From IMG/VR virus record IMGVR_UViG_3300048091_000425: DNA of 64,000 nucleotides; one strand, 5' to 3'. Made by a program: the position numbers and the translations under genes. This document shows, one piece after another, positions 23,982 through 47,298 of this stretch; positions within the stretch are counted from its first letter, which is position 1; each line of letters opens with the position of its first letter. The stretch is from a virus. Below the pieces are notes generated by a model. The model was not told where the DNA came from and did not search any database. It saw nothing but the letters and a program-made list of their open reading frames with translations.

Positions 23982-25272
23982 CCAGTCCTAGCCTTGGAAA
24001 CCCCTTCCTTCAGGTGGGGGAGGAAAAGGCTTCAATGAAGTTGAAATTAGTTGTACATATATACAGCATTATGCAATAGTCAATTTATGACAAAACGCGC
24101 CTACAAATATAGGTTTTACCCTACTCAAGAGCAGGTTTTGCTCCTGGAGAAAACCTTTGGCTGCGTTCGATTCGTATACAATCATGTCCTGAATTTCAGG
24201 TCAAAACAATACTCAGAAAATGCCGTTCGAATTGGCTTCACACAGGCCAATGCTGAGCTCACTCGCCTGAAAAAAGACCCTGAAAAATCCTGGCTCTCAG
24301 AGGTCTCATGCGTGCCGCTTCAGCAGGTGCTACGGCACCAGCAGACCGCTTTCACAAATTTCTTCGAAAAACGCGCTGGATACCCATCCTTCAAGAAAAA
24401 GCACCATCGGCAGTCGGCTGAGTTCACGCGCAGCGCGTTCAAGTATGTCGGCGGCCAACTGTTCATGGCCAAGAGCAAAATCCCCCTGAATATCCGCTGG
24501 AGCCGCGAGCTGCCCAGCGATCCGTCGACCGTCACGATTTCCAAGGATTGGGCCGGGCGCTACTTCGTGTCCATGCTTTGCGAATTCACACCAGAAGCGC
24601 TACCTGTGACACCGGAAATGGTTGGAATCGACCTTGGCTTGACCCACCTATTTATCCGTGACGACGGCAAGAAAGAAGAAAATCCAAAACACACGGCCCG
24701 CTACGCGGCCCGATTGGCGCTGCTCCAGCGCCGGCTGTCAAAGAAAAAGCTGGGCTCTGCGAATCGCCAGAAGGCGAAGCGCAAGGTGGCCAAGTTGCAC
24801 GCGAAGATTGCCGATACTCGCCAGGACAACCTTCACCAGGTGTCACGCAGATTGATCAACGAAAACCAAGTGATCTGTGTCGAGTCTCTTAAAATCAAAA
24901 ATATGGTAAAAAACCGTCGATTATCCAAGGCTATAAGTGATGCCGGTTGGGGAGAATTTATCCGCCAGCTGGACTACAAAGGCACTTGGGCTGGTCGTCA
25001 GCTGGTCAAAATTGACCAATGGGCGCCCAGTAGCAAGAAATGCTCTTGCTGCGGTCACGTGATGGAAAAGATGCCGCTGAATGTTCGATTCTGGACGTGC
25101 CCTGCCTGCCAGGAAAAGCACGACCGCGATGTGAACGCAGCGCGAAATATTAGAGCCGTGGGACTCACGGTGCTAGCCTGTGGAGAGGCCAGAAGTCCAA
25201 ACGCTCTAGCAGCGTAAGGCAGGCCTCTGCGAAGCAGGAATCCCCTTCTCTTCAGGGAGGGGAGGATGTCAA
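23982..25272 (+). mobile_element. IS200/IS605-family element carrying tnpB only (IS1341-like)
   Basis: Left-end hairpin CCCCTTCCTTCAGGTGGGGG (about 24001); right-end hairpin CCCCTTCTCTTCAGGGAGGGG followed by AGGATGTCAA ending at 25272; removing the element restores an RBS-ATG junction. Confidence 0.8.
24087..25217 (+). CDS. tnpB: RNA-guided endonuclease TnpB
   Basis: AYKYRFYPT HTH, GIDLG (RuvC I), CVESL (RuvC II), CSCC...CPAC zinc finger, HDRDVNAARNI (RuvC III). Confidence 0.95.
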   Translation: MTKRAYKYRFYPTQEQVLLLEKTFGCVRFVYNHVLNFRSKQYSENAVRIGFTQANAELTRLKKDPEKSWLSEVSCVPLQQVLRHQQTAFTNFFEKRAGYPSFKKKHHRQSAEFTRSAFKYVGGQLFMAKSKIPLNIRWSRELPSDPSTVTISKDWAGRYFVSMLCEFTPEALPVTPEMVGIDLGLTHLFIRDDGKKEENPKHTARYAARLALLQRRLSKKKLGSANRQKAKRKVAKLHAKIADTRQDNLHQVSRRLINENQVICVESLKIKNMVKNRRLSKAISDAGWGEFIRQLDYKGTWAGRQLVKIDQWAPSSKKCSCCGHVMEKMPLNVRFWTCPACQEKHDRDVNAARNIRAVGLTVLACGEARSPNALAA

Positions 25273-44345: not shown

Positions 44346-44373
44346 ATATCTGAAGCAATTGGAGAAGCGCAGC

Positions 44374-45504
44374 ATGATTACTGCAGTTTACGCACTTTCC
44401 GGAGACCCTATTACTTTCGGTCATATTGACATCATCAACCGAGCCGCCGCTGGGTTTGATAATCTCATTGTTGGCCTTGGCGTAAACCCCAACAAAAAAT
44501 ACATGCTAACCCCTAATGAGCGGATAGCTGTTGCCAAACAATCGCTATCCCACCTCAATAATGTTGAGGTGATGTTCTTCGAAGGCCTGCTTGTGGATTT
44601 CGCATTTGAACAAGGTGCCACAATCATTGTTCGTGGCATCAGAAACGCCTCGGATGCAGTGGCCGAACAAGCCCTCGATCAGATCAATGGCTCTCAGATG
44701 AACATTGATACTTTTTTCATGTTTTCACGTTCCAAGCTTGCACATGTAAGTTCCAGCAACGTGAAAGCACTACAGGCCGAGAACGGACTCATTCATGAAT
44801 ATGTTCCGCTCCCAGTTAAGAAAATGCTCGAACGCAAGATCTCACACCAGCTTGTCTACGGGGTAACAGGCGTAATGGGATCTGGGAAATCATACGTTGC
44901 CGAGCAACTTGCTATCTATGCCGAGACACAACATGCGGTATCAGAAAGCAACCCGCTGGTTCACAACATTGAACTTGATAATCTGGCTCATCAAGTATAT
45001 GAATCAGATAAACCGGGCTACAAAGACATTCGTGAAAAAATCCAAAATCACTTTGGAACGCTAGACCGGTCAGAAATTGGGCAGATCGCCTTCGGCAGCG
45101 AGAACAGCAAGGAGCACGTTGACTTTTTAAACAACATTTTCAAAGACCCTGTCATGGTTCTGCTGCGTCAAGAACTACGTGGCAGGCAAGGCATCGTGCT
45201 GATTAATGCAGCCTTGCTTGTTGAGAGTGACCTGCTCAATCTCTGCAACAACCATGTAATTTTAGTCAACGCTGAAGACGCAGTGCGCCATGAGCGTCTG
45301 GTGAAATTCAGGAACATTGACCCAGTTGTTGCTGAAGAACGTATCAAACACATGAAAAGCAACAGCGCCAAGAGAGCGCAGATCAAGAGGTCTATTTCCA
45401 GCTCTCGCTTCGGTAATATTGTAGATTTTGACAATTCCTCAAGTAACCTTGAGATGATTGCCAATCTGTATGAACAGCTTAAAAATGAATACTTCGGAAA
45501 GTAG
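44374..45504 (+). CDS. coaD-coaE: bifunctional phosphopantetheine adenylyltransferase / dephospho-CoA kinase (CoaD-CoaE fusion)
   Basis: YALSGDPITFGHIDII, IIVRGIR, HVSSSNVK (CoaD); GVTGVMGSGKS P-loop, AALLVE, V.AEDAVRHERL (CoaE); GGAG RBS. Confidence 0.9.
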   Translation: MITAVYALSGDPITFGHIDIINRAAAGFDNLIVGLGVNPNKKYMLTPNERIAVAKQSLSHLNNVEVMFFEGLLVDFAFEQGATIIVRGIRNASDAVAEQALDQINGSQMNIDTFFMFSRSKLAHVSSSNVKALQAENGLIHEYVPLPVKKMLERKISHQLVYGVTGVMGSGKSYVAEQLAIYAETQHAVSESNPLVHNIELDNLAHQVYESDKPGYKDIREKIQNHFGTLDRSEIGQIAFGSENSKEHVDFLNNIFKDPVMVLLRQELRGRQGIVLINAALLVESDLLNLCNNHVILVNAEDAVRHERLVKFRNIDPVVAEERIKHMKSNSAKRAQIKRSISSSRFGNIVDFDNSSSNLEMIANLYEQLKNEYFGK

Positions 45505-45613: not shown

Positions 45614-46096
45614 ATGGAACGGCTCAAAGGGTACTACCGAGTCAAATATGAAGGAATCTGGACAATAGCGGAATACAAACCGACTGTGAACAGCCGCCCA
45701 GGCCACTGGCTATGGGTCGACGGCGACATGTATTGCGAGGAGTTCGATGAGATCTCTGATCGGCGGATTCCAATGCCTGACGATCCTGAAGAGCTCCAGG
45801 TCGTCGCTGTTACCTCAGCAACGGCGCCAGAGCAGACCCTAGCCATCGCTCAGCCGGCCATCGAGGGAGAGTTAATGCCTCGGTACAAATTCACAGACGC
45901 GGAGATGCTGGACTACATTCAGCGCCATCACACGCTTCACAAAACAATCGGGTTTCTGTATGTCGTTGACGGGTACCACGCCACAGTCATGTGGGATGAT
46001 TCGCCCATGTCCGAGGATTTCAAAGGTGAGACATTGCGTGGAGCAATTGATGCAATGATGACAAACGGCGATATTATGACCCGACAAGGTCGCTGA
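45614..46096 (+). CDS. mosaic phage-like hypothetical protein
   Basis: GYYRVKYEG.W.IAEY N-terminal module; DAEMLDYI...TLRGAIDAMM C-terminal module. Confidence 0.6.
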   Translation: MERLKGYYRVKYEGIWTIAEYKPTVNSRPGHWLWVDGDMYCEEFDEISDRRIPMPDDPEELQVVAVTSATAPEQTLAIAQPAIEGELMPRYKFTDAEMLDYIQRHHTLHKTIGFLYVVDGYHATVMWDDSPMSEDFKGETLRGAIDAMMTNGDIMTRQGR

Positions 46097-46284
46097 ACAT
46101 CTTCAGTCACCTTCTTTCATCGACGGCCAATAGATACCGTGGAAAACTGAACCTTCGTTTTTACAGATAACCAGCGCATGCCTTTAAAAATAGGCTTTTG
46201 CGCAAAATCCGTGCAAACAAAGGTTAGAGGCAGAAACCCCTTATTCTGCCTTTGATTTAAAGGGTTTAATGCAATATTCTGTCA
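46097..46284 (+). promoter_or_regulatory. CRISPR leader, type I-F-like
   Basis: AT-rich non-coding; inverted repeat AACCTTCGTTT (46150) / AAACAAAGGTT (46215); IHF-like TTTAAAGGGTTT about 29 nt before repeat 1. Confidence 0.65.
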
Positions 46285-46552
46285 GTTCACCACCGTGCAG
46301 GTGGTTTTGAAAATCATCAGCATCGACTTGTGGTCGAAGACCGTGTTCACCACCGTGCAGGTGGTTTTGAAAAAAGTGAGAGCTTGAAATAGACCTCTTG
46401 ATCTGTTTACCACCATCTAGGTGGTTTTGAAATCGCCGGTAGCAGGATGCTGGGGTATGAAGCGGTTTACCACCCTACAGGTGGTTTTGAAAAGCTACGG
46501 TGGTGATGGTACACGCCCTCCCATGTTCTCCACCTAACAGGTGGTTGGTAAT
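46285..46552 (+). CRISPR. CRISPR array, 5 repeats of 28 nt and 4 spacers of 32 nt, type I-F-like, no cas genes in the window
   Basis: Repeats start at 46285, 46345, 46405, 46465, 46525 (period 60); consensus GTTCACCACCGTGCAGGTGGTTTTGAAA; terminal repeat degenerate. Confidence 0.93.
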
Positions 46553-46616: not shown

Positions 46617-46832
46617 ATGAAGACTTTCAGCATAAGCCAAGCAAAGAGACGGTTAACCAGGCTCGCGAAACTGGCCGCGACTGGCGAAGTGGTGATCATC
46701 ACAAAAGGCGGCAAGCCAGTCGCTCAACTGGTGTCGCTGCACTACGGCGAAGACCACATAGGGAAACTCACGCACCTAGCAGAAGTGGACTATCAGGTCA
46801 AAGATGTCCACTGGGCCGGCGACAAGACCTGA
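46617..46832 (+). CDS. Phd/YefM-family antitoxin, no toxin partner
   Basis: MKTFSISQAKRRLTRL...GEVVIITKGGKPVAQLV; GAGGAGG RBS. Confidence 0.85.
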   Translation: MKTFSISQAKRRLTRLAKLAATGEVVIITKGGKPVAQLVSLHYGEDHIGKLTHLAEVDYQVKDVHWAGDKT

Positions 46833-46842
46833 CGGGAAGTGT

Positions 46843-47298
46843 CTACACCAGACCGACGGCCTGCCCCTGCGCCGCCAGCGCATTCATCATCCAGGCACTC
46901 TCCGCGTTTCGCTTCGTTTTGTACGCAACCACATCCACCAGGCGCAGCCGGCGATGTTTACCGACCTTGGTAAACGGAATGACGCCCCGCTCTACCAGCC
47001 TGATCAGGTAAGGCCTGGACACGTTTAGCAGGTCAGCCGCTTCCTGTGTGGTCAGTTCGGCCTGTACCGGCACAACTTGAGCACCGTTACCCTTCGCAAT
47101 CTCCTCCAGCGCATGCTGAAGCAGCCAGAGCGCAATAGCCGGTACCTCGACCTCTCTTTCAACGTTTTCATCCAACAGGCGTATCCGGTGAGTGACTGCG
47201 CCCGTATCAAGCAGGTCACGCAGGGGTGGCAATGCCTTTTCAGCGGTTGCACGCTCGAAAGCGCCGGGGATTGTGTAAAGGGTTGGCATGGCAAGCAC
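46843..47298 (-). CDS. excisionase-family HTH protein (antitoxin type normally paired with a PIN toxin)
   Basis: ELTTQEAADLLNVSRPYLIRLVERGVIPFTKVGKHRR. Confidence 0.85.
   Translation of the reverse strand: MLAMPTLYTIPGAFERATAEKALPPLRDLLDTGAVTHRIRLLDENVEREVEVPAIALWLLQHALEEIAKGNGAQVVPVQAELTTQEAADLLNVSRPYLIRLVERGVIPFTKVGKHRRLRLVDVVAYKTKRNAESAWMMNALAAQGQAVGLV

What the first reader, a model, noticed from the sequence alone, without database searches (positions are those of the whole stretch)
46097..46552. Cas-less type I-F-like CRISPR array with a conserved stem, a free-varying loop and an intact-looking leader
Seen in the sequence: five 28-nt repeats and four 32-nt spacers, with period exactly 60. 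Every repeat keeps the stem CCACC/GGTGG while the 5-nt loop differs (GTGCA, GTGCA, ATCTA, CTACA, TAACA), which looks like selection on RNA structure rather than decay. The leader has an 11-nt inverted repeat and an IHF-like site near repeat 1. Established: GTT...GAAA 28-nt repeats with 32-nt spacers are the I-F geometry processed by Cas6f. The canonical I-F stem is CTGCC/GGCAG with a CTAAGAAA handle, so this is a divergent variant (CCACC stem, TTTTGAAA handle). No cas gene lies within about 46 kb upstream or 17 kb downstream. Inference: the array works in trans with a distant element-encoded or host Cas set, either against competing mobile elements, as a regulatory mini-array, or as a Cas-sequestering decoy. 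Spacers: ATCATCAGCATCGACTTGTGGTCGAAGACCGT, AAAGTGAGAGCTTGAAATAGACCTCTTGATCT, TCGCCGGTAGCAGGATGCTGGGGTATGAAGCG, AGCTACGGTGGTGATGGTACACGCCCTCCCAT.
Basis: partly seen in the sequence, partly recalled or inferred. Interest (0 to 1): 0.8.

Follow-up and report, generated by a model that had tools for sequence, protein, structure and literature searches.

The report
Satellite CRISPR mini-array on a Pseudomonas megaplasmid
This is a real, intact-looking four-spacer CRISPR array on a roughly 1 Mb Pseudomonas megaplasmid. It is not truly Cas-less, because the plasmid family carries a matching type I-F Cas gene set far away, and one spacer is aimed at sibling megaplasmids.

Summary
There are five 28-nt repeats and four 32-nt spacers with an exact 60-nt period on the + strand. 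The CCACC/GGTGG stem is kept, the loops vary, and no cas gene lies in the 64-kb window.

The "Cas-less" reading does not hold:
- The window belongs to a ~1.08 Mb Pseudomonas megaplasmid. It is syntenic with the P. serbica, P. silesiensis pPL1 and Pseudomonas sp. PLMAX megaplasmids.
- All examined relatives carry a type I-F interference module beside an array of this same repeat: cas8f-cas5f-cas7f-cas6f, in most with a divergent cas3f beside it. No type I-F cas1 was found.
- That module occurs in the same three samples that hold the window's exact sequence. It is also recorded on a contig of the window's own length (1,077,129 bp).
- So this is a satellite array of an element-encoded system.

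Spacer 2 matches a coaD/coaE-like gene of two sibling plasmids 32/32 with a 5'-CC PAM. The resident copy, about 0.9 kb upstream, differs at spacer positions 1, 5 and 13. The best reading is exclusion of sibling plasmids.

Loop hypervariability is family-wide: 57 distinct loops among 91 distinct repeats.

Other first-stage notes of this scan made the same points on this same stretch; none concerned other DNA. This is a new member of a known kind, of moderate interest.

The parts
46097..46284 (+). CRISPR leader. The part from about 46138 to 46284 is conserved in the family.
   Evidence: It is 60% A+T. It aligns with the leaders of the large arrays of the P. serbica plasmid and pPL1, sharing the CTTTAAAAAT..AGGCTTTT motif about 100 nt upstream of repeat 1. 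The same motif lies before the canonical type I-F array of pBASL58.
46285..46552 (+). Array of five 28-nt repeats (46285, 46345, 46405, 46465, 46525) and four 32-nt spacers (46313-46344, 46373-46404, 46433-46464, 46493-46524).
46373..46404 (+). Spacer 2, the only spacer with an identified target.
   Evidence: It matches 32/32 with a 5'-CC PAM in pPLMAXa (L026 7022-7053, minus strand) and in a 360-kb JGI contig (L054). It matches 31/32 in pPL1.
45380..45413 (-). Resident copy of the spacer-2 protospacer (45380-45411) plus its CC PAM (45412-45413). It has mismatches at spacer positions 1, 5 and 13.
44359..45504 (+). Target gene: a CoaE plus cytidylyltransferase-like fusion, named pantetheine-phosphate adenylyltransferase by public sources.
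   Evidence: Pfam PF01121 and PF01467.
45614..46096 (+). A 160-aa hypothetical gene that ends at the start of the leader. It served as the anchor for synteny and for the sample look-up.
46617..46832 (+). Phd/YefM-type antitoxin-like gene (71 aa) directly after the array. It is absent at this site in the P. serbica plasmid and in pPL1.
   Evidence: Pfam PF02604, E 2e-9. Synteny.
46843..47298 (-). HTH_17 DNA-binding protein gene. It forms the right border of the variable intergenic site.
   Evidence: Pfam PF12728. Synteny.

Best explanation
The locus is a functional-type satellite CRISPR array of a megaplasmid-borne type I-F system that has no adaptation genes of its own. Inferred steps: the array is transcribed from its own family-type leader. 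The pre-crRNA is cut at the base of each CCACC/GGTGG hairpin by the plasmid's divergent Cas6f. This gives four 60-nt crRNAs, each with a UUUUGAAA 5' handle, a 32-nt guide and a 3' hairpin. These load into the plasmid's Cas8f-Cas5f-Cas7f-Cas6f complex, which recruits Cas3f to DNA that carries a 5'-CC PAM. Shown step: crRNA 2 perfectly matches, with that PAM, the coaD/coaE-like gene allele carried by sibling megaplasmids. The resident allele has two seed mismatches (positions 1 and 5). The array should therefore destroy or exclude incoming sibling plasmids while sparing its own replicon. The free-varying loops reflect old repeats drifting at the only positions that Cas6f and the complex do not read.
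For: Replicon: the window is syntenic at 85-97% nucleotide identity with about 1 Mb Pseudomonas megaplasmids. Its own protein sits on a 1,077,129-bp contig. Cas partner: the P. serbica plasmid has a divergently oriented cas3f, then an array, then cas8f-cas5f-cas7f-cas6f. All are recognised by type I-F profiles, for example Cas7f at E 1e-69 and Cas3f at E 8e-177. The array plus cas8f-5f-7f-6f recurs in pPL1, pPLMAXa and three further contigs. The identical Cas7f (P0121) lies in JGI 3300046471, JGI 3300066486 and SRR26076568, the three samples that carry 100% identical copies of the window's array. It also lies on a 1,077,129-bp contig. All five cas frames are open in that copy. Repeat and Cas6f go together: pBASL58 lacks both this repeat and this Cas6f type. 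Constraint: among 91 distinct family repeats, positions 6-10 and 16-23 are nearly invariant (entropy H below 0.5 bit), while the loops have H of 1.5-1.8 bits. Leader homology is shown. Target: two 32/32 matches with a CC PAM; the PAM is kept in all nine alleles examined; only the resident allele has two seed mismatches. Plasmid-borne arrays preferentially target plasmids (PMC9071438).
Against: The window's own assembly is withheld. Three of the four spacers, and all three spacers of the pPL1 mini-array, have no target in three relatives' genomes, in phages or plasmids, in IMG/VR, or (for spacer 1) in JGI metagenomes. The array next to cas is itself eroded, with repeat spacings of 41-143 nt, so the system could be in decline. 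The three resident mismatches are not more than ordinary divergence predicts: 22% of 34-nt windows in the gene have three or more differences.
Confidence: 0.7

Rival explanations
1. The array is a relic: an old fragment no longer expressed or used, left at a recombination-prone intergenic site.
For: It has only four spacers. Adjacent repeats differ in their loops, which suggests age. No type I-F cas1 was found in the relatives. The site is empty in the P. serbica plasmid and in five further relatives. The cas-adjacent array is eroded. Three spacers have no target.
Against: The 60-nt period is exact, every stem is intact, and only the dispensable 3' end of the last repeat is degenerate. The full-length leader is conserved. 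A 32/32 match with PAM to extant plasmids is present. The sequence is identical in three independent samples.
Confidence: 0.12
2. Spacer 2 was captured from the resident plasmid's own leader-adjacent DNA. The resident gene then escaped by seed mutations. The array thus records past autoimmunity rather than anti-sibling defence.
For: The protospacer lies about 0.9 kb from repeat 1 on a roughly 1,077-kb replicon, which by chance would happen about 0.2% of the time. All three resident differences are derived on the window's lineage, two are in the seed, and one is non-synonymous, His to Arg. The protospacer window is in the top 3.6% of the gene for variable columns across nine alleles. Array-adjacent acquisition hot spots are known for type I-E (Levy et al. 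2015, recalled from memory, not checked here).
Against: No type I-F cas1 was found to perform such a capture. The number of mismatches fits ordinary divergence. Whatever its origin, the crRNA would still hit sibling alleles today, so this rival concerns history more than present function.
Confidence: 0.1
3. The array is served by a chromosomal type I-F system of the host rather than by the plasmid's own module.
For: The repeat ends (GTTCAC...GAAA) and its geometry match canonical type I-F. Elements without adaptation genes are thought to borrow host machinery (PMC9071438).
Against: Two stem base pairs and the 5' handle differ from the canonical repeat. The nearest relative's whole genome contains only the two plasmid Cas6f genes. 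This repeat co-occurs with the module's Cas6f, and both are absent from pBASL58, which uses canonical repeats.
Confidence: 0.05
4. crRNA 2 acts as a regulator: it binds the resident coaD/coaE-like gene or its mRNA through partial pairing. Alternatively, the array acts as a Cas-sequestering decoy.
For: The resident site keeps the PAM and 29 of 32 bases. The guide is antisense to the mRNA.
Against: Two seed mismatches should block type I-F binding (established knowledge of the positions 1-5, 7, 8 seed). Perfect targets exist on siblings. Nothing specific points to a decoy.
Confidence: 0.03

Closest known systems
Type I-F CRISPR arrays (Rfam RF01317 CRISPR-DR4; P. aeruginosa/Pectobacterium Csy system)
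   Same: 28-nt repeat, 32-nt spacers, GTTCAC 5' end and GAAA 3' end, a 5-bp stem with a 5-nt loop at positions 6-20, and a 5'-CC PAM. The partners are Cas8f, Cas5f, Cas7f, Cas6f and Cas3f.
   Different: Two stem pairs are swapped in a compensated way (U7-A19 to C7-G19, and G8-C18 to A8-U18). The handle is UUUUGAAA instead of CUUAGAAA. The score is 33 bits against a 35-bit threshold. No type I-F cas1 is present. The repeats within an array differ strongly in their loops. The cognate Cas6f is remote from solved Csy4 (E 0.02).
CRISPR-Cas loci of the pMPPla107/pBASL58 Pseudomonas megaplasmid family (Smith, Leligdon and Baltrus 2019, PMC6482414)
   Same: Pseudomonas megaplasmids of about 0.9-1.2 Mb carrying cas3 and csy genes, with repeat regions far from the cas genes.
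   Different: pBASL58's complete system has cas1f and perfectly uniform canonical repeats. It has neither the CCACC repeat nor this Cas6f type. Membership of the window's plasmid in that published family was not tested. It rests on similar size, the cas3-csy3-csy4 module they describe, and a shared leader motif.
Plasmid-borne CRISPR systems that target other plasmids, including type IV-A (PMC9071438, PMC7038947, bioRxiv 10.1101/2023.06.23.546257)
   Same: The system is element-encoded and lacks its own adaptation module. It has short arrays distant from cas, and a spacer aimed at related plasmids.
   Different: The effector here is a Cas3-containing type I-F module, not the DinG-containing type IV. 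No Csf or DinG genes were seen. The target is a close sibling of the carrier itself.
Orphan type I-F (CRISPR4) arrays of E. coli with anti-cas spacers (Almendros et al. 2016, cited in PMC9071438)
   Same: Short type I-F-type arrays with no adjacent cas genes.
   Different: Those genomes truly lack type I-F cas genes. Here the cognate cas module is on the same replicon family and in the same samples.

Membership tests
CRISPR array, type I-F repeat class | Regularly spaced direct repeats of 28 nt separated by unique spacers of about 32 nt | tested here: met
   Five repeats with spacing 60, 60, 60, 60 and four unrelated spacers.
CRISPR array, type I-F repeat class | The repeat matches the curated type I-F repeat model (Rfam RF01317) at its gathering score | tested here: inconclusive
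   33 bits against a 35-bit gathering score, E 1.2e-5, full length 1-28. Two compensated stem changes account for the shortfall.
CRISPR array, type I-F repeat class | A stem-loop at repeat positions 6-20 that leaves an 8-nt 5' handle | tested here: met
   Minimum-free-energy folds. The stem is paired in 96-100% of 91 family repeats.
CRISPR array, type I-F repeat class | A 5'-CC PAM next to the protospacers | tested here: met
   The one identifiable protospacer has CC in all nine alleles. There is only one target, and the CC overlaps a Gly codon, so this is weak as statistics.
CRISPR array, type I-F repeat class | Cognate type I-F cas genes (cas6f, cas7f, cas5f, cas8f, cas3) in the same genome | tested here: met
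   Present next to same-repeat arrays in all relatives. Present in the same three samples, and on a contig of the window's own length. A direct read of the own replicon was not possible.
CRISPR array, type I-F repeat class | Transcription and Cas6f processing into crRNAs | not testable with these tools
Orphan (Cas-less) CRISPR array | No cognate cas genes anywhere in the replicon or host | tested here: not met
Complete adaptive type I-F1 system | cas1 and a cas2-3 fusion present | tested here: not met
   No Cas1 (PF01867) in the whole genomes of the P. serbica strain and of strain PLMAX. pPL1's only Cas1 belongs to a separate type I-E operon. The Cas2 domain of Cas3f was not specifically tested.
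Type IV-A plasmid CRISPR-Cas | Csf1/2/3 effector with a DinG helicase, and no Cas3 | tested here: not met
   The effector genes hit Cas8f, Cas5f and Cas7f profiles, and the helicase-nuclease hits Cas3f. Type IV Cas6 profiles score far lower than Cas6f.

The most novel reading that the evidence does not exclude
The CCACC-repeat type I-F module and its scattered arrays form a hard-wired, Cas1-independent exclusion system between sibling megaplasmids. Mini-arrays dropped into variable intergenic sites encode allele-specific guides against core genes of close relatives, and each carrier is protected by seed substitutions in its own allele. This drives local hypervariability of the protospacer, which is in the top 3.6% of the gene. 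It would amount to a CRISPR-based incompatibility determinant. The loop-hypervariable repeats would then be a natural mutational scan of what this Cas6f needs.
Probability: 0.25. Interest if true: 0.6.

Novelty: new member of a known kind. Interest (0 to 1): 0.4.

Why it matters
It turns an apparent orphan array into a testable case of one giant plasmid policing its closest relatives with a Cas3-type CRISPR system that cannot acquire spacers on its own. The perfect and mismatched alleles of the target gene are available in sequenced plasmids, so interference and self-tolerance can be compared directly. The family's 57 natural loop variants on an invariant stem also map which repeat positions a divergent Cas6f and its complex actually read.

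Tried and rejected
No expression, processing or same-molecule check was therefore possible.
- Rfam at gathering thresholds found nothing in the window.
- Spacers 1, 3 and 4 had no credible match in any of these: the phage and plasmid collections; the genomes of the P. serbica strain, strain PLMAX and pPL1, with each sixth base free and up to three mismatches allowed; or IMG/VR. Spacer 1 also had no match in JGI metagenome contigs.
- Spacer 2 had no hit within three mismatches in 201 genomes of the genus.
- The three spacers of the pPL1 mini-array match only themselves.
- The large array of the P. serbica plasmid, used as a BLAST query, gave only repeat-to-repeat hits on pPL1 and pPLMAXa.
- Of 62 regular family spacers, none other than spacer 2 hit the window or any held locus outside arrays.
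- A metagenome scan for the repeat-spacer-repeat pattern gave one short contig.
- Considered and rejected: type IV-A and Tn7-like type I-F3 (Cas3f is present, and no DinG was seen; TniQ/Tns genes were not searched for); the pPL1 Cas1 as a type I-F adaptation gene (it is type I-E); and an IHF site in the leader.
- The alignment of Cas6f to solved Csy4 is too weak (E 0.02) to support more than a lead. In it the catalytic His and Ser align, and Gln104 is replaced by Arg opposite the A19-to-G19 change in the repeat.

Full report
**Observation.** The window holds five 28-nt direct repeats at 46285, 46345, 46405, 46465 and 46525, all spaced exactly 60 nt apart, with four unrelated 32-nt spacers. The core CCACC-N5-GGTGGTT occurs five times in the window and nowhere else, against zero in 100 shuffles. 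As RNA, repeats 1-4 fold into a 6-bp stem with a 5-nt loop, at -8 to -10 kcal/mol; repeat 5 folds as a 6-bp stem with a 3-nt loop at -7.8. Only the last eight bases of repeat 5 are degenerate, and the fourth crRNA does not need that part. Repeats 1 and 2 align end to end with Rfam RF01317 (CRISPR-DR4, the type I-F repeat) at 33 bits, E 1.2e-5, just under the 35-bit gathering score. The shortfall comes from two compensated stem changes and the handle. No homologue of ten type I-F Cas proteins is encoded in the 64-kb window. The leader contains an inverted repeat (8 perfect pairs, 11 with G-T) and a 12-nt palindrome, but no IHF consensus within one mismatch.

**What replicon this is.** The window's own assembly is withheld. 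The window is collinear with three megaplasmids:
- a 1,059,468-bp plasmid of Pseudomonas serbica IT-P366 (89-97% identity around the array);
- P. silesiensis pPL1 (1,168,067 bp);
- Pseudomonas sp. PLMAX pPLMAXa (948,989 bp).

The window's own coaD/coaE-like protein is recorded on a 1,077,129-bp contig. Pseudomonas megaplasmids of this size with cas3/csy loci and distant repeat regions have been described (pMPPla107 and pBASL58; PMC6482414).

**The Cas partner.** The P. serbica plasmid carries arrays of the same repeat at about 220.5-221.5 kb and 852-855 kb.
- Flanking the first array is a module made of a divergently oriented cas3f, the array, then cas8f, cas5f, cas7f and cas6f. All are recognised by type I-F profiles.
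- A second type I-F-like module has no array nearby.
- The array plus cas8f-5f-7f-6f recurs in pPL1, pPLMAXa and three other contigs. cas3f is adjacent in most of them.
- No Cas1 is found in the whole P. serbica or PLMAX genomes. pPL1's only Cas1 belongs to a separate, complete type I-E operon.

Segments 100% identical to the window, including the array, occur in JGI metagenomes 3300046471 and 3300066486 and in run SRR26076568. A Cas7f identical to the P. serbica one (P0121) is encoded in exactly those three samples, within an intact cas3f-array-cas8f-cas5f-cas7f-cas6f locus. Its longest recorded contig is also 1,077,129 bp. I take this as strong indirect evidence that the same replicon carries the module. 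On the relatives the module lies roughly half a megabase from the mini-array site, which explains why the window looks Cas-less.

**Repeat and Cas6f go together.** pBASL58 has a complete canonical type I-F system with cas1f and 37 perfectly uniform CTTCACTGCC...GGCAGCTTAGAAA repeats. It has neither the CCACC repeat nor a homologue of this module's Cas6f. The module's Cas6f passes Pfam PF09618 (40.9 bits) but is remote from solved Csy4 (E 0.02). In that weak alignment the catalytic His and Ser align.

**The free-varying loop is a family trait.** I collected 103 repeats (91 distinct) from eight arrays.
- Positions 6-10 and 16-23 are almost invariant, with entropy H below 0.5 bit.
- The five loop positions have H of 1.5-1.8 bits, and 57 distinct loops occur.
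- Stem changes are mostly C-to-T, which keeps G-U pairing.
- Caveat: repeats were picked by their match to the non-loop consensus, which lowers non-loop entropy somewhat. Even so, the scored positions 1, 3-5, 24, 27 and 28 still vary far more than the stem does.

Leader-proximal repeats are uniform in pPL1's 300-kb array and in contig L041, so faithful duplication does happen. Older units diverge. The cas-adjacent array is eroded, with spacings of 41-143 nt, yet is 98% conserved between the own-sample contig and P. serbica. In contrast the window's mini-array is pristine in register.

**Leader and site.** About 150 nt upstream of repeat 1 aligns with the leaders of the large arrays of the P. 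serbica plasmid and pPL1, including a CTTTAAAAAT..AGGCTTTT motif near -100. That motif also precedes the pBASL58 array. The site lies between the 160-aa gene and the HTH_17 gene, and it is a variable spot:
- it is empty in P. serbica, where about 90 nt separate the two genes;
- in pPL1 it holds a four-repeat mini-array with other spacers and only the proximal leader;
- in the window it holds leader, array and a Phd-like gene;
- in further relatives it holds hipA-type and other genes.

**Targets.** Spacer 2 matches the minus strand of the coaD/coaE-like gene.
- It matches 32/32 with a 5'-CC PAM in pPLMAXa and in a 360-kb JGI contig.
- It matches 31/32 in pPL1.
- Five other alleles carry one to four mismatches.
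- The resident copy at 45380-45411 matches 29/32, with mismatches at positions 1, 5 and 13 and the PAM kept.

Positions 1-5, 7 and 8 form the type I-F seed (established knowledge), so the resident copy should be spared while at least two extant siblings are fully targetable.

The three resident differences do not exceed ordinary divergence. Gene-wide divergence is 5.6%, and 22% of 34-nt windows have three or more differences. However, the protospacer window ranks in the top 3.6% for variable columns across nine alleles. The target also lies only about 0.9 kb from the array. This coincidence of roughly 0.2% leaves open that the spacer was first taken from the resident plasmid itself. Spacers 1, 3 and 4 have no identifiable target.

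**Mechanism and rivals.** The best reading, at about 0.7, is a satellite array processed by the plasmid's own Cas6f. It arms the plasmid's type I-F complex and Cas3f against sibling megaplasmids and unknown elements. Which parts are shown and which are not:
- Shown: the array's anatomy, the family-wide constraint on the repeat, the cognate module in relatives and in the same samples, and a perfect target with PAM.
- Inferred: transcription, processing, interference, and in-trans acquisition of spacers.

The rivals are as follows:
- a relic array (0.12);
- self-capture of the spacer followed by escape, which concerns history rather than present function (0.10);
- service by a host type I-F system (0.05);
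- a regulatory or decoy role (0.03).

**Comparison and verdict.** The locus works like a type I-F array and meets the structural features of that class, apart from narrowly missing the Rfam threshold. It fails the definition of an orphan array. Plasmid-borne arrays that lack adaptation modules and target plasmids are a documented pattern (PMC9071438). The finding is therefore a new member of a known kind. Three features remain worth a bench test: allele-specific targeting of siblings, extreme loop heterogeneity on an invariant stem, and a pristine remote mini-array beside a decayed cas-adjacent one. Other first-stage notes of this scan on the same stretch reached the same spacer-2 and loop observations. 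I had found both independently beforehand.

Noticed in passing
window 46617-47298: A Phd/YefM-type antitoxin-like gene (71 aa) and an HTH_17 gene (151 aa, minus strand) follow the array with no obvious toxin partner. The Phd-like gene is absent at this site in the P. serbica plasmid and in pPL1. Other relatives carry hipA-type toxin genes here.
   Followed up: partly
window 24051-25217: A TnpB / IS605 OrfB-like protein (388 aa) with PF01385, PF07282 and PF12323.
   Followed up: no
L025 12526-14217 (P. serbica plasmid, second type I-F-like module): A 563-aa protein with no Pfam or PADLOC match sits where Cas8f would be, between Cas5f-like and Cas3f-like genes. This module has no array within 20 kb.
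   Followed up: partly
L043 6815-7786 and L024 4527-5498: The array between cas3f and cas8f is eroded, with repeat spacings of 41-143 nt and many truncated spacers. It is nevertheless 98% identical between the two plasmids.
   Followed up: partly
L051 2105-7745 (pPL1, record 762-768 kb): pPL1 also carries a complete type I-E operon (cas8e, cas11e, cas6e, cas7e, cas5e, cas1e, cas2e) about 15 kb from its type I-F module.
   Followed up: partly
L010/L011 (P. serbica plasmid 852-855 kb) and L030 (pPL1 300-302 kb): The large arrays contain internally duplicated repeat-spacer units. They share at least one spacer (30 of 31 bases) and a homologous leader, so they are orthologous arrays.
   Followed up: no
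L052 7657-7681 (pBASL58): The canonical type I-F array of pBASL58 has the same CTCTTTAAAAAT leader motif about 100 nt upstream of its first repeat as the CCACC-type arrays. This suggests a shared promoter or integration signal.
   Followed up: no
window 45380-45413 and orthologues (L026, L027, L009, L053-L057): The spacer-2 protospacer has 9 variable columns in 34 nt across nine alleles, against a gene mean of 4.6. The CC PAM, which overlaps a Gly codon, never varies.
   Followed up: yes
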